This document shows positions 1-3,000 of a stretch of DNA of 64,000 nt, one piece after another. Position numbers: made by a program. How positions within the stretch are numbered: position 1 is the first letter of the stretch; each line of letters starts with the position of its first letter. Source of the stretch: Escherichia coli (GTDB lineage Bacteria; Pseudomonadota; Gammaproteobacteria; Enterobacterales; Enterobacteriaceae); assembly GCF_003334765.1 (NCBI RefSeq), contig NZ_QOWT01000002.1; one strand, given 5' to 3'.

Positions 1-3000
1 ACCGGACGACGGGCTCATAACCCAATCCATCCGGGCGGCTGCCACCGCAGGTGTTCTTCTCTGTTTTGTGGAGAAACTAACCGCCCCTACGGGGGCATTT
101 ATGGAAATGTAATTGACTCAATAATCGCCGGACGGTGAGGGCTTCCTTTTACCCGAATTCAGCGCGGTGCAGCGCATATACGTGGAGAACAAAATGTCAT
201 TTATTAAAACTTTTTCCGGGAAGCATTTTTATTATGACAGGATAAATAAAGACGACATCGTTATTAACGATATCGCGGTTTCCCTTTCAAATATCTGTCG
301 CTTTGCAGGACATCTTTCACACTTCTACAGTGTCGCCCAACATGCGGTGCTTTGCAGCCAGCTGGTGCCGCAGGAATTTGCTTTTGAAGCGTTAATGCAT
401 GATGCAACAGAAGCGTATTGCCAGGACATCCCCGCACCACTGAAACGACTTCTTCCTGACTATAAACGGATGGAAGAAAAAATAGACGCCGTAATACGTG
501 AGAAATACGGGTTACCTCCTGTTATGAGCACGCCAGTGAAATATGCCGATCTCATTATGCTGGCAACCGAACGCCGCGATCTCGGGCTTGATGATGGCTC
601 TTTCTGGCCTGTACTGGAAGGTATCCCGGCAACAGAGATGTTCAAAGTGATTCCACAGGCACCGGGCCATGCCTACGGGATGTTTATGGAACGTTTTAAC
701 GAGTTATCGGAGTTACGCAAATGCGCATGAATGTTTTCGAAATGGAAGGGTTTCTTCGTGGGAGATGTGTACCGCGAGATCTGAAAGTAAATGAAACAGA
801 TGCTGAATACCTGGCGCGTAAATTCGATGCGCTTGAAGCTAAATGTGCAGCACAGGAAAACAAAGTAATACCAGTGTCAGCTGAACTGCCACCAGCAAAT
901 GAAAGTGTTTTGTTATTCGATGCTAACGGAGAAGGCTGGCTAATTGGCTGGCGTTCTCTCTGGTACACCTGGGAACAAAAAGAAACCGGAGAATGGCAGT
1001 GGACATTTCAGGTCGGGGACCTTGAAAACGTCAATATCACTCACTGGGCAATAATGCCAAAAGCACCGGAGGCTGGAGCATAATGATCACTTTTACCGAC
1101 AAAGAACTGATTAAAGAAATTAAAGAGCGTATCAGCAGCCTTGACGTGCGAGACGATATTGAGCGCCGTGCTTATGAAATCGCACTCCTATCGCTGGAAG
1201 TAGAACCAGATGAACGCGAAGCTTATGAATTATTCATGGAAAAGCGTTTCGGTGACTTAGTAGATCGTCGGAGAGCAAAAAACGGCGATAACGAATACAT
1301 GGCATGGGATATGACTCTCGGTTGGATCGTCTGGCAGCAACGAGCTGGTATCCATTTTTCAACAATGTCACAGCAAGAGGTGAAATAATGGAGCCATACA
1401 GCCTCACACTCGATGAGGCCTGTTCATATCTGATAGAGCCGCTATATGGCGGTTTATTTTTGCCTGGAGAATTAAGATGACCGATACCAGCCTGATTCCT
1501 GAGAAAGAAGTGATGAACAAGCTCGGTGTTTCATCACGTCAGACAATCTGGAACTATACCAAACGGCACGGATTTCCGAAGCCAGTCAGAACCCACCCCA
1601 AATCATACCTTCGTGAAGCTGTTGAGGGGTGGATTCTTAACGGTGGCGTTAATCAGAAATGCTCCTGATGTGCCAGAACAATTTATCAGCGTGAAGCTCA
1701 TACACTTTGCGCTGAGCCTCTATCCAGTCGTGTTTATTGTATACTGACATTATCCCGCCAAGTTCATGACCGAGCATTCGCTCAGTAACATGAGGCTCGA
1801 CATTCATCTCGGACAGACGTGTAACAAGCGTTCTTCTGAAATCGTGTGTTCGCCAGTAACCTAGATCCATCCCTCCCCTTATTCTATTTACGAATCGGTT
1901 GGCTGCAGCGATGCTGATCGGCTTGCTTATGTCTTCTCCAGGGAAAAGAACATCATTATACGTTGTCATGGCCTTTTCGAGGAAAGGCTTAATTTGTTCG
2001 AAGATTGGACGGCGGATAACATTACCCATCTTGCTATGCTCTTTCGGTACGGTCCATACGTTTTCCAGCAGGTCAAATTCTGTCTTTTTTGCCAGCCTAA
2101 GCTCTGAGAGCCTCGCCCCCCACAGCATAAGCATCTGATGAAGTAGCTTATTTGACGTAGACGCACGGCTTCTTTCAATAGCAAGCCAAATCTTAGCCAG
2201 TTCGTGATACGACAGTACCCGATCCCCTACCTCAGCGCGGGAGCCGAAGTCCCTTGGTTGGATGCTCATAATTGCGCAACTATCTATCAACTGACGCCGC
2301 ATGCACCAACTTATTGCTGATCTTAGTTGACTTAGCACCTGCCTTGCTCGGCGTGGATTATCTCTTTCTTCTTCGGTAAGCAGGTCAACCCATTGCTTAA
2401 CCGTGATAGAAGATGCCGGACGATTAGGAAAGGCGTCATGCATGCGCTTCATAACCGTTGATCGGTAAAGTGCCTGGGTCTTTTCTCTGAGAGTTGTAGA
2501 GACGTAGTTGTCGAACCAGTAGTCGAGACACTGGGCGACCGTCATGGAGTTCTCCACCTTCTCTTCAAAATAAGTGCGTGGATCCGTTCCTGAGAAATAG
2601 AGCTTTCGCAAGTCAGCAGTGATCTGTCTGGCATCCTTCAAAGACAGGGATGGGTATCGACCAAGCCCAAGTCGATTAGGCTTGCCATGCCAGCGATAGC
2701 GGTACTGGAACTGGATGACCCCCTTCGGTGAAATTCGTACGCTGAGGCCATCGGCATCAGCCACTTCTTGTGGGCCCGAATATGGTTTACCATAAATAGT
2801 ACGCAGTTTTGTGTCGCTTATAGCCATAAATAATATTTGGTACGCTCAGAATTAATAGTTTGGTACACATCTGGTACACAATATCACATGGACAACAGCG
2901 CACAGTAAACAACTATATTTGACGTTCGTAGACATACTCAGGTTAAAAAAGGGTTGTTTTTCGAGTTATAACAGACAGTTAATTAACTACAGTGGACAAT

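What the first reader, a model, noticed from the sequence alone, without database searches (positions are those of the whole stretch)
1477..2827. Convergent 20-bp overlap between the AlpA-like gene and the integrase gene
The AlpA/Xis-like ORF ends at 1668 and the integrase stop is at 1649 on the opposite strand, so the two transcripts must overlap at their 3' ends. This could couple excisionase and integrase expression through antisense or transcriptional interference.
Basis: seen in the sequence. Interest (0 to 1): 0.3.

Follow-up and report, generated by a model that had tools for sequence, protein, structure and literature searches.

The report
Phage integrase–excisionase genes overlap tail-to-tail
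The 20-base overlap is real, but it is the usual, already catalogued layout of the integration/excision module of a common family of E. coli prophages that insert at sbcB, and nothing yet shows that the overlap itself regulates anything.

Summary
Observation confirmed. A 63-aa helix-turn-helix ORF (1477-1668, +) and a 392-aa tyrosine integrase gene (2827-1649, -) converge and share 20 bp (1649-1668).

The pair is the integration/excision module of sbcB-targeting lambdoid phages (2851, Sf101, HK140, mEp234, HK544; 98-99% identical DNA). About 10% of complete E. coli genomes carry it.

The small protein is 47% identical to phage phi24B Xis, and the integrase is 56% identical to phi24B Int. phi24B Xis is experimentally required for excision, and phi24B int/xis overlap tail-to-tail by 17 bp. 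Phage phi80 (sequenced 1986) has the same convergent layout with a 4-bp overlap.

Of 86 related loci, 83 keep a 17-, 20- or 23-bp overlap. Two have a cargo gene inserted after int, and one has a 2-bp gap.

The better-supported control logic is separate promoters:
- xis is the last gene of the N-antiterminated pL operon and sits just behind an intrinsic terminator.
- int appears to have its own promoter, overlapped by three arm-type Int sites next to the att core.

Antisense or interference coupling is possible but untested. In phi24B, int mRNA did not fall when xis rose 51-fold. Here the element is probably a 6.6-kb remnant without pL.

Verdict: already known, low interest.

The parts
1436..1461 (+). 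Intrinsic terminator (stem 1436-1455, T tract to 1461), about 20 nt upstream of the xis-like start codon
   Evidence: Terminator scan. RNA fold -10.8 kcal/mol centroid hairpin, although z is only -0.9 against shuffles. Annotated as a rho-independent terminator in phage HK140 at the equivalent position. The hairpin keeps its position but has different stem sequences in relatives with >=74% Int identity, followed by conserved TTTTTGCCTGGAGA.
1466..1470 (+). Ribosome-binding site GGAGA of the xis-like gene
   Evidence: Read from the sequence. CTGGAGA is conserved upstream of xis in relatives, including phi80.
1477..1668 (+). xis-like gene: 63-aa winged-helix (AlpA-related) recombination directionality factor
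   Evidence: ORF. PHROG_66 at 1.9e-8. Pfam AlpA marginal for this protein, but 4 of 19 family members reach E<=0.001. 47% identical to phi24B Xis. AlphaFold model pLDDT 86.8, best TM match is the 8c3t excisionase.
1649..1668 (.). 20-bp convergent overlap of the two coding regions, both stop codons included
   Evidence: Conserved as 17, 20 or 23 bp in 83 of 86 related loci.
1649..2827 (-). int: 392-aa tyrosine integrase with an arm-binding N-terminal domain
   Evidence: Pfam Arm-DNA-bind_3 1.9e-17 and Phage_integrase 4.8e-16. PHROG_1 4e-73. 56% identical to phi24B Int. 98-99% identical to the integrases of mEp234, 1717 and HK544.
2835..2879 (-). Three direct arm-type repeats G[CT]GTACCA (2835-2845, 2858-2868, 2871-2879) between the putative int promoter and the int ATG
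   Evidence: Three of the six window matches to GYGTACCA fall within 42 bp on one strand. Equivalent repeats lie at the same place in all relatives, including phi24B and phi80. Two more copies (TTTGGTACGC, TTTGGTACAC) lie in the other arm of HK140 attP.
2880..2909 (-). Putative int promoter: extended -10 TGTGATATT (2880-2888) and -35-like TTTACT (2904-2909)
   Evidence: The TGnnATATT block is the most conserved non-coding block upstream of int across relatives with 61-100% Int identity. Coordinates. Prediction only; the consensus scan did not call it. An alternative -10-like TATTAA near 2849-2856, read by eye from the sequence printed, would correspond to the phi24B 5'-RACE start (PMC3064807).
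2993..3011 (-). Tandem CATTGTCYA repeats with a 10-bp period next to the att core; candidate binding sites for the directionality factor
   Evidence: Related TTGTCCA at 2889-2895 and ATGTCTA at 2929-2935. Function is inferred by analogy with lambda X1/X2 sites (from my own knowledge) and KplE1 TorI sites; untested.
3025..3054 (.). att core region (phage/host junction) inside the 5' end of sbcB; the published 13-bp core is 3042-3054
   Evidence: Homology to phage HK140 ends at 3054. Prophage-free E. coli genomes match from 3025 onward. The 13-bp core CGTAATCGTGAAA of Sf101 and 2851 (PMC4159516) maps to 3042-3054.
3009..4433 (+). sbcB (exonuclease I), whose first ~5 codons and promoter come from the prophage

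Best explanation
This is the site-specific recombination module of an sbcB-inserting lambdoid prophage of the phage 2851 / Sf101 / HK140 / mEp234 type, built on the phi80/phi24B plan.

Reading right to left in the window, the parts are:
- the att core inside the 5' end of sbcB;
- a short regulatory region carrying a dedicated int promoter overlapped by three arm-type Int sites;
- int on the minus strand;
- the small directionality-factor gene (xis-like) converging on int from the plus strand.

In intact relatives the xis-like gene is the last gene of the N-antiterminated pL early operon and lies 20 nt behind an intrinsic terminator.

The 20-bp overlap is an inherited structural feature of this module family. 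The dispensable C-terminal tails of Int and Xis are encoded on opposite strands, which leaves no intergenic space.

The inferred working logic is uncoupling of the two genes:
- Int is made at a low level from its own promoter, which is probably repressed by Int itself.
- Xis is made only when pL is derepressed and N lets polymerase read through the terminator, which switches Int from integration to excision.

Complementary 3' ends and head-on transcription follow unavoidably from this layout. They may modulate expression, but they are not needed to explain directionality control.

Shown here: gene identities, the overlap and its conservation, the position of the terminator hairpin, the arm repeats, the att core, and the operon position in HK140.

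Inferred: promoter activity, self-repression of int, the requirement for antitermination, and any RNA-level effect.
For: - Overlap and genes.
- The same module at 98-99% DNA identity occurs in phages 2851, 1717, Sf101, mEp234, HK544 and HK140, and in 527 of 5426 complete E. coli genomes.
- Window Int is 56% and window Xis 47% identical to phi24B Int and Xis. The phi24B record has int 236..1405 and xis 1389..1571, a 17-bp convergent overlap.
- In phi24B, Xis is required for excision, int has its own 5'-RACE-mapped promoter, is expressed in lysogens and is not repressed by CI, and xis is placed under pL (PMC3064807).
- phi80 has the order attP core, pI, int, then a convergent xis with a 4-bp overlap. 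mEp021 has a 61-bp overlap.
- 83 of 86 related loci overlap by 17, 20 or 23 bp.
- The terminator hairpin upstream of xis keeps its position while its stem sequence changes, and HK140 annotates it as a terminator.
- In HK140, xis is the distal gene of the cI-pL-nutL-N-...-recT-... leftward operon.
- Arm-type repeats lie between a conserved extended -10 and the int ATG in all relatives and recur in the other attP arm.
- In KplE1, an int promoter overlapped by att arm sites is negatively autoregulated by the integrase and repressed by the directionality factor (PMC2951348).
- att core mapping.
Against: - No transcript data exist for this module. The int promoter is predicted only, and the generic sigma-70 scan did not call it.
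- The phi24B RACE start maps about 29 nt upstream of int (my calculation), not at the conserved extended -10, so the promoter position is uncertain.
- The terminator upstream of xis is absent in the Klebsiella clade (61% Int identity). It lacks a T tract in L025 and phi80, so dependence on antitermination is not universal.
- The terminator hairpin does not fold better than shuffled sequence (z -0.9).
- The overlap persists in nearly all lineages. Even an inserted cargo gene again overlaps xis by 8-13 bp. This is also what selection for convergent read-through would produce.
- In the near-identical BE2-5 genome the element lacks pL, N and cI, so the described logic applies to the intact phages rather than to this remnant.
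Confidence: 0.75

Rival explanations
1. One reading: the tail-to-tail overlap with no terminator between the units is selected because head-on transcription and complementary 3' ends make int and xis expression mutually antagonistic. In lysogens, constitutive int transcripts would run antisense through xis and silence leaky xis expression. After induction, N-modified polymerases from pL would run antisense through all of int and shut it down.
For: - The overlap is kept in 83 of 86 loci, across 53-100% Int identity.
- When a cargo gene is inserted after int, its 3' end again overlaps xis by 13 or 8 bp.
- I found no conserved intrinsic terminator within about 100 nt downstream of xis in relatives, nor downstream of int in the window.
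- Transcripts that reach xis in intact phages must already have passed an intrinsic terminator. They are therefore probably antiterminated and would continue into int.
- phi24B int mRNA rose only 1.73-fold on induction. Its expression scales with prophage copy number (2.6- and 7.5-fold in double and triple lysogens; PMC3064807), so some restraint during replication is plausible.
Against: - There is no direct evidence in any member. The two phi24B papers never mention overlap or antisense.
- int mRNA did not fall when xis rose 51-fold.
- L048 has lost the overlap. Overlap length ranges from 4 bp (phi80) to 61 bp (mEp021) in more distant members.
- phi80 is annotated with a putative terminator for the xis transcript just inside int.
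- Restraint of int can equally be explained by Int or Xis binding at the promoter, as in KplE1.
- Excision needs Int and Xis together, so strong mutual exclusion would be counterproductive.
Confidence: 0.2
2. The small protein is not an architectural excisionase. It acts like AlpA of CP4-57, as a transcription factor that switches on int, so the pair would be a regulator-target pair rather than a recombinase-directionality factor pair.
For: - Databases annotate it as an AlpA-family regulatory protein.
- It has a marginal Pfam AlpA match.
- TTGTCCA-type repeats lie in and near the putative int promoter.
Against: - The 47%-identical phi24B protein converted attL/attR substrates to excised products only when co-expressed with Int from a plasmid. 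That is a direct directionality function independent of int transcription (PMC3064807).
- phi24B int is expressed constitutively without xis induction.
Confidence: 0.08
3. The short ORF is a chance open frame on the antisense strand of the int 3' end and the upstream spacer, so there is no real gene overlap.
For: - It is unannotated or labelled 'hypothetical' in several phage records.
- NCBIfam gives no match.
Against: - It is conserved as an intact ORF with an RBS in all relatives, down to 37% identity, with invariant F33, P34, P36, P41, Y44 and W52.
- PHROG_66 match at 1.9e-8.
- Confident winged-helix model.
- Homologue of a protein with demonstrated function.
Confidence: 0.02

Closest known systems
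Integration modules of the sbcB-inserting lambdoid phages 2851 (Stx2c), 1717, Sf101, HK140, HK544 and mEp234
   Same: Essentially the same DNA: 98-99% identity from about 1401/1446 to the att core. They share the same two genes, the same 20-bp overlap, the same terminator position, the same 13-bp att core and the same target, the 5' end of sbcB (PMC4159516).
   Different: Those are intact, inducible phages in which xis is the last gene of the pL operon. The window element is probably a 6.6-kb remnant, judging from the near-identical BE2-5 genome. The genes just upstream (yfdR-yfdT-like) differ because the module is mosaic.
Phage phi24B int/xis (Fogg et al. 2011, PMC3064807)
   Same: Same protein families (Int 56%, Xis 47% identical). 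Same layout, with int inverted relative to lambda and converging on xis. Tail-to-tail overlap present (17 bp). Arm-type GTAC repeats lie upstream of int. This is the experimental basis for 'xis is the directionality factor' and 'int has its own CI-independent promoter'.
   Different: Different attachment site. The overlap is 17 bp rather than 20. The hairpin upstream of xis is 38 nt away rather than 20. The paper does not discuss the overlap or antisense effects.
Phage phi80 int/xis (GenBank X04051, 1986; genome JX871397)
   Same: Same architecture: attP core, putative pI, three TGTGTAC arm-type repeats, int, then a convergent xis overlapping int's 3' end. A hairpin followed by CTGGAGA lies upstream of xis.
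   Different: Int is only about 30% identical. Xis is not significantly similar (E 0.007 over 16 residues). The overlap is only 4 bp and in a different phase. The record annotates a putative terminator for the xis transcript inside the int 3' end; no conserved equivalent was found here.
KplE1 (CPS-53) / HK620 IntS-TorI module (Panis et al. 2010, PMC2951348)
   Same: Same regulatory idea: the int promoter is overlapped by att arm sites, int is negatively autoregulated and also repressed by the directionality factor, and directionality is controlled by expression of that factor alone. Here the xis-like gene directly follows a yfdT-like gene; from my own knowledge, torI occupies that position in KplE1.
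   Different: From my own knowledge of the K-12 map, not checked here, torI and intS lie at opposite ends of the KplE1 prophage and are not convergent neighbours, so no gene overlap arises. Self-repression of int is shown there and only inferred here.
Lambda int/xis with pI, pL and sib retroregulation
   Same: Same function: an integrase plus a small directionality factor at the end of the N-antiterminated pL operon, next to attP.
   Different: In lambda both genes are on the same strand and co-transcribed from pL, int alone is transcribed from pI, and int is controlled post-transcriptionally by sib downstream of attP (as summarised in PMC2951348). Here int is inverted, so none of that can apply.

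Membership tests
Tyrosine recombinase (phage integrase) with arm-binding domain | C-terminal catalytic domain (Pfam PF00589) | tested here: met
   Phage_integrase i-E 4.8e-16, residues 204-366.
Tyrosine recombinase (phage integrase) with arm-binding domain | N-terminal arm-type DNA-binding domain | tested here: met
   Arm-DNA-bind_3 i-E 1.9e-17, residues 4-85. Matching arm-type repeats lie next to the gene.
Tyrosine recombinase (phage integrase) with arm-binding domain | Conserved catalytic R, K, H-x-x-R, H and Y residues | tested here: met
   R239, K266, H328, R331, H354 and Y363 are invariant in the five-sequence alignment. Assigning them to catalytic roles is by motif position (GARxSE, HDFRR, LGH, VYNKH), which is inference.
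AlpA / winged-helix excisionase (recombination directionality factor) family | Significant match to Pfam Phage_AlpA (PF05930) | tested here: inconclusive
   Window protein i-E 0.0035, score 17.6. Among 19 homologues, 4 reach E<=0.001 and 14 reach E<=0.1, best 5e-7. The family profile hits PDB 8c3t 'AlpA family phage regulatory protein' at 8.4e-4.
AlpA / winged-helix excisionase (recombination directionality factor) family | Winged-helix fold | tested here: inconclusive
   The model has pLDDT 86.8 with the order strand, helix, helix, strand, helix. The best TM-scores are to the GIsul2 excisionase 8c3t (0.66/0.72, rmsd 2.0); TorI, RdfS and MerR-type domains are also listed. No Foldseek E-value is below 0.1 for this 63-residue query.
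AlpA / winged-helix excisionase (recombination directionality factor) family | Homology to a protein with demonstrated excision activity | tested here: met
   47% identity over 58 residues to phi24B Xis, E 4e-19. phi24B Xis was needed for excision in complementation assays (PMC3064807).
AlpA / winged-helix excisionase (recombination directionality factor) family | Promotes Int-dependent excision | not testable with these tools
   Needs an in vivo or in vitro attL x attR assay.
phi80/phi24B-type convergent int-xis recombination module | int and directionality-factor genes convergent, with 3' ends overlapping | tested here: met
   20 bp here; 17 bp in phi24B; 4 bp in phi80.
phi80/phi24B-type convergent int-xis recombination module | att site next to the 5' end of int, with arm-type repeats between the att core and the int start | tested here: met
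   The core at 3025-3054 is 198 bp from the int ATG. Three GYGTACCA repeats lie at 2835-2879.
phi80/phi24B-type convergent int-xis recombination module | Directionality-factor gene is the distal gene of the pL early operon | tested here: inconclusive
   Met in the intact relative HK140. The window starts 1.5 kb upstream of xis, and the near-identical BE2-5 element has lost pL, N and cI.
phi80/phi24B-type convergent int-xis recombination module | int transcribed from its own promoter, independent of the phage repressor | not testable with these tools
   Only a conserved extended -10 block is seen. This is shown experimentally for phi24B only (PMC3064807).
cis-antisense / transcriptional-interference gene pair | No terminator between the convergent units | tested here: met
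   No intrinsic terminator lies in or near the overlap. The hairpin 1688-1715 has no U tract and occurs only in the clade with >=86% Int identity. Rho-dependent termination cannot be assessed; C/G is 1.2-1.5 downstream of xis.
cis-antisense / transcriptional-interference gene pair | Expression of one partner falls when the other is induced | tested here: inconclusive
   The only data come from the homologue phi24B: xis rose 51-fold and int 1.73-fold, not significant, on induction. Phage replication raises template copy number, which confounds the comparison.
cis-antisense / transcriptional-interference gene pair | Both strands transcribed across the overlap in the same cells | not testable with these tools
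   Needs strand-specific RNA-seq or 3'-end mapping.

The most novel reading that the evidence does not exclude
The absence of any terminator between the convergent int and xis units is conserved: a 17-23 bp overlap in 83 of 86 loci, restored as an 8-13 bp overlap even after a cargo gene was inserted behind int. This could reflect selection for a bidirectional interference switch. In lysogens, constitutive int transcription reading antisense through xis would silence leaky xis expression and stabilise lysogeny. After induction, terminator-resistant pL transcription reading antisense through all of int would curb Int once excision has happened. This would be an RNA-level layer of directionality control that neither the phi80 nor the phi24B work examined.
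Probability: 0.2. Interest if true: 0.4.

Novelty: already known. Interest (0 to 1): 0.15.

Why it matters
This module carries Stx2c and other converting prophages into the sbcB locus and is present in roughly one in ten complete E. coli genomes. How its integrase and excisionase are balanced therefore bears on prophage stability and toxin-phage spread.

The layout itself is textbook: phi80 in 1986 and phi24B in 2011, and it is annotated in many records. The finding adds no new kind of element.

The one open point is whether head-on transcription contributes to control. It is cheap to test, and a positive result would be an incremental refinement of the known uncoupled-promoter model.

Tried and rejected
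- Rfam scan of 1-3300 at E<=1: only a sub-threshold STnc310 match at 231-272, unrelated to the overlap.
- Search for a terminator serving either gene. The plus-strand hairpin 1688-1715 downstream of xis has no U tract and exists only in the clade with >=86% Int identity. The terminator-like site at 1970-1989 lies in int codons (KPFLEKA) that vary between relatives, so it is unlikely to be a conserved element. The minus-strand hairpin 1587-1637 (z -2.8) is formed by the THP and EGW codons of xis, and the Gly is clade-specific, so it is probably a coding by-product.
- A small inverted repeat ATCAG...CTGAT around the overlap, seen in the fold, is not kept in relatives (sequences).
- NCBIfam gave no model for the small protein.
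- Foldseek against the PDB gave no significant E-values for the 63-residue model; only TM-scores were usable.
- Literature searches for convergent, antisense or interference control of int/xis found nothing on this family. The 1986 phi80 paper is not in the library, so I relied on its GenBank record.
- C/G composition as a hint of Rho-dependent termination was not decisive.
- I did not use the large protein or metagenome searches, because viral contigs and phage records already gave a full identity gradient.
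Full report
**1. The observation**

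The window has an ORF at 1477-1668 on the plus strand (63 aa, stop TGA at 1666-1668). It also has an ORF at 2827-1649 on the minus strand (392 aa, stop TAA at 1651-1649). They share 1649-1668, which is 20 bp. Stop codons fix both 3' ends, so the overlap does not depend on the choice of start codon. The same two genes with the same overlap are annotated in E. coli BE2-5, which differs from window 1-3779 by 3 bases, and in phage HK140.

**2. What the two genes are**

The long ORF is a tyrosine integrase.
- It has Arm-DNA-bind_3 (1.9e-17) and Phage_integrase (4.8e-16) domains.
- It matches PHROG_1 at 4e-73.
- The catalytic-motif residues are invariant among relatives.

The short ORF is a helix-turn-helix protein.
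- Its Pfam AlpA match is only marginal (i-E 0.0035), and NCBIfam has no model for it.
- It hits PHROG_66 'excisionase and transcriptional regulator' at 1.9e-8.
- It belongs to a conserved family with invariant F33, P34, P36, P41, Y44 and W52. Four of 19 members pass Pfam AlpA at E<=0.001.
- The family profile finds PDB 8c3t, an AlpA-family excisionase, at 8.4e-4.
- An AlphaFold model (pLDDT 86.8) has the order strand, helix, helix, strand, helix. Its best TM-scores are to 8c3t, with TorI, RdfS and MerR-type winged helices also listed. No Foldseek E-value is significant for so small a query.
- Most importantly, it is 47% identical to phi24B Xis, and the integrase is 56% identical to phi24B Int.

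**3. Where it sits**

The window is E. coli. sbcB starts at 3009.

DNA from about 1401/1446 to beyond 3000 is 98-99% identical to the integration modules of phages 2851 (Stx2c), 1717, Sf101, mEp234, HK544 and HK140. Of 5426 complete E. coli genomes, 527 hold at least 80% of the stretch 1300-3010.

Three results place the att core:
- Homology to HK140 attP ends at 3054.
- Prophage-free genomes match only from 3025 onward.
- The published 13-bp core of Sf101 and 2851 (PMC4159516) maps to 3042-3054.

The prophage therefore sits in the 5' end of sbcB and supplies that gene's start codon and promoter.

In BE2-5 the element is a 6.6-kb remnant. It is bounded by both cores and carries tail-fibre fragments fused to yfdR/yfdT-like genes, xis and int. 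It has no pL, N or cI. The window begins inside this remnant, so I cannot see its left end directly.

**4. Is the overlap conserved?**

I collected 86 related loci from annotated phage and E. coli records and viral contigs, with integrase identity 53-100%.
- 83 have a direct int/xis overlap. It is 20 bp in most.
- It is 17 bp in phage 86, Hafnia phage yong2 and L032, and 23 bp in L042, L045 and L046. The differences are whole codons, so the relative phase is constant.
- The phi24B record, fetched separately, has int 236..1405 and xis 1389..1571, a 17-bp overlap.
- In that phase each gene's wobble position faces the other gene's second codon position (worked out from the sequence). The two C-terminal tails therefore change together: SISD/QKCS, KISG/QKSS, KVAD/QPLS and so on.

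The exceptions show the limits of the pattern.
- L048 has a 2-bp gap.
- L033 and L037 carry a 276-281-aa signal-peptide gene directly after int, and its 3' end again overlaps xis by 13 or 8 bp.

More distant modules have the same convergent plan with other overlap lengths: 61 bp in mEp021, and 4 bp in phi80 and HK225. The overlap is thus an inherited feature of a known layout, not a peculiarity of this window.

**5. Regulatory anatomy upstream of xis**

An intrinsic terminator lies at 1436-1461, 20 nt before the xis start. It is followed by the RBS GGAGA. HK140 annotates it as a rho-independent terminator.

In relatives with at least 74% Int identity the hairpin keeps its position but has different stems (GCCGC/GCGGT, CCCGGCC/GCCGGG, GCCCTC/GAGGGC, ACCCGC/GCGGTT). 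It is followed by the conserved TTTTTGCCTGGAGA. That pattern suggests a functional hairpin.

There are caveats:
- phi24B has a similar hairpin 38 nt upstream.
- L025 and phi80 have a hairpin without a T tract.
- The Klebsiella clade has none.
- The window hairpin does not fold better than shuffled sequence (z -0.9).

In intact HK140, xis is the last gene of the leftward operon cI, pL, nutL, N, ral, recT and so on. I infer that xis is reached only by N-modified polymerases.

**6. Regulatory anatomy upstream of int**

Three direct repeats G[CT]GTACCA lie at 2835-2879. They account for three of the six matches to that pattern in 64 kb.
- Equivalent repeats sit at the same place in every relative, including phi24B and phi80.
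- Two more copies lie in the other arm of HK140 attP.
- They are therefore best read as arm-type Int sites.

Just upstream is the most conserved non-coding block of the family, TGnnATATT (2880-2888 here). It looks like an extended -10, and TTTACT lies 18 nt further upstream.

This is a prediction only. By my calculation the phi24B RACE start lies about 29 nt upstream of int, nearer the third repeat.

Either way, the promoter region is overlapped by Int sites. In KplE1 this arrangement was shown to give negative autoregulation of int, plus repression by the directionality factor (PMC2951348).

Tandem CATTGTCYA repeats lie next to the core at 2993-3011. A TTGTCCA lies at 2889-2895, inside the putative promoter spacer. 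These are candidate sites for the small protein. If it binds them, it could repress int directly, which would be a protein-level link between the two genes.

**7. How it most likely works**

In phi24B (PMC3064807):
- int is inverted relative to lambda;
- it has its own promoter;
- it is expressed in lysogens and is not repressed by CI;
- the small ORF at int's 3' end is required for excision and is placed under pL.

The window module shares the proteins, the layout and the arm-site arrangement. The best-supported mechanism is therefore uncoupled control. Int is made at a low level from a promoter it probably represses itself, and directionality is set by whether Xis is made.

The overlap leaves no room for a terminator, so complementary 3' ends and head-on transcription follow from the layout. 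Whether they matter is open.
- Against a strong effect: int changed 1.73-fold (not significant) while xis rose 51-fold on phi24B induction (PMC4651098 Table S4). The overlap is also dispensable in some lineages.
- For some effect: int expression scales with prophage copy number in phi24B yet hardly rose during induced replication. The no-terminator arrangement is also retained very widely.
- The restraint on int could equally be repression by Int or Xis at the promoter.

In this genome, which probably lacks pL, xis is likely almost silent behind its terminator. The only relevant RNA would then be the 3' extension of int mRNA.

**8. Comparison, novelty and verdict**

The element is a member of the 2851/Sf101/HK140 module and is essentially the same DNA. 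That module belongs to the phi24B Int/Xis family and follows the phi80 plan known since 1986 (X04051). It differs from lambda, where xis and int are co-directional and int is controlled through pI and sib. In KplE1, by contrast, the two genes are not convergent neighbours (from my own knowledge).

Neither phi24B paper mentions the overlap or antisense effects, and I found no paper that does.

The feature is already known and interest is low.

Noticed in passing
window 3009-3054, and L088 around position 7379: The att core lies inside the first 16 codons of sbcB. In the lysogen, sbcB therefore has a phage-supplied start codon, N-terminus (MTGTDKQPTFLFHDYE instead of the native MMNDGKQQSTFLFHDYE) and, necessarily, promoter. 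That promoter must be divergent from the int promoter within 2828-3008. The orphaned native 5' end sits at the other att site in BE2-5.
   Followed up: partly
L088 (E. coli BE2-5, 3 mismatches to window 1-3779); the left end lies outside the window: The element between dacD and sbcB is only about 6.6 kb and is bounded by both 13-bp cores. It carries tail-fibre fragments fused to yfdR-, yfdT-like genes, xis and int, with no pL, N or cI. It is a KplE1-like cryptic remnant that may still be excisable.
   Followed up: partly
window 2993-3011, 2929-2935, 2889-2895 (minus strand): Repeats of TTGTC[CT]A: two in tandem with a 10-bp period next to the att core, and one inside the spacer of the putative int promoter. 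They may be binding sites for the 63-aa protein, which would give direct repression of int by Xis. Related TGTTCA repeats occur at the same places in relatives.
   Followed up: partly
L033 3184-4029 and L037 1773-2603: A 276-281-aa gene with a signal-peptide-like N-terminus is inserted immediately after int, on int's strand. Its 3' end overlaps xis by 13 or 8 bp. It may be a cargo gene expressed from the int promoter in lysogens.
   Followed up: no
window about 1401 and about 1446: The left boundaries of the shared module in different phages fall just before, or inside, the terminator hairpin. HK140 has a different left half of the stem that still pairs. The terminator seems to be a mosaic recombination joint. 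A 30-aa ORF (1388-1480) spans it here and is probably not a gene.
   Followed up: no
window 1587-1637, minus strand: An 11-bp GC-rich stem (z -2.8 against shuffles) lies in the RNA downstream of the int stop. It is formed by the THP and EGW codons of xis. The Gly is specific to this clade, so it is probably a coding by-product.
   Followed up: partly
L004 2501-2692, L006 2489-2686, L091: The xis-like gene is missing from the annotation of several deposited phage genomes (Klebsiella ST11-VIM1phi8.3, Hafnia yong2, Cronobacter ENT39118). It is called 'hypothetical' in 2851, 1717 and HK140.
   Followed up: yes
window 167-1388: The genes upstream of xis are a yfdR-like 5'-deoxynucleotidase (167-730), a PHROG_583 protein (721-1083) and a yfdT-like protein (1083-1388). 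This is the gene order that K-12 prophage CPS-53 has just before torI (order from my own knowledge), consistent with xis occupying the torI position.
   Followed up: partly
window 6000-64000: Not examined. I only noted that 3009-7318 carries the usual chromosomal neighbours sbcB, tsuB/yeeD, tsuA/yeeE and an amino-acid permease-like gene.
   Followed up: no
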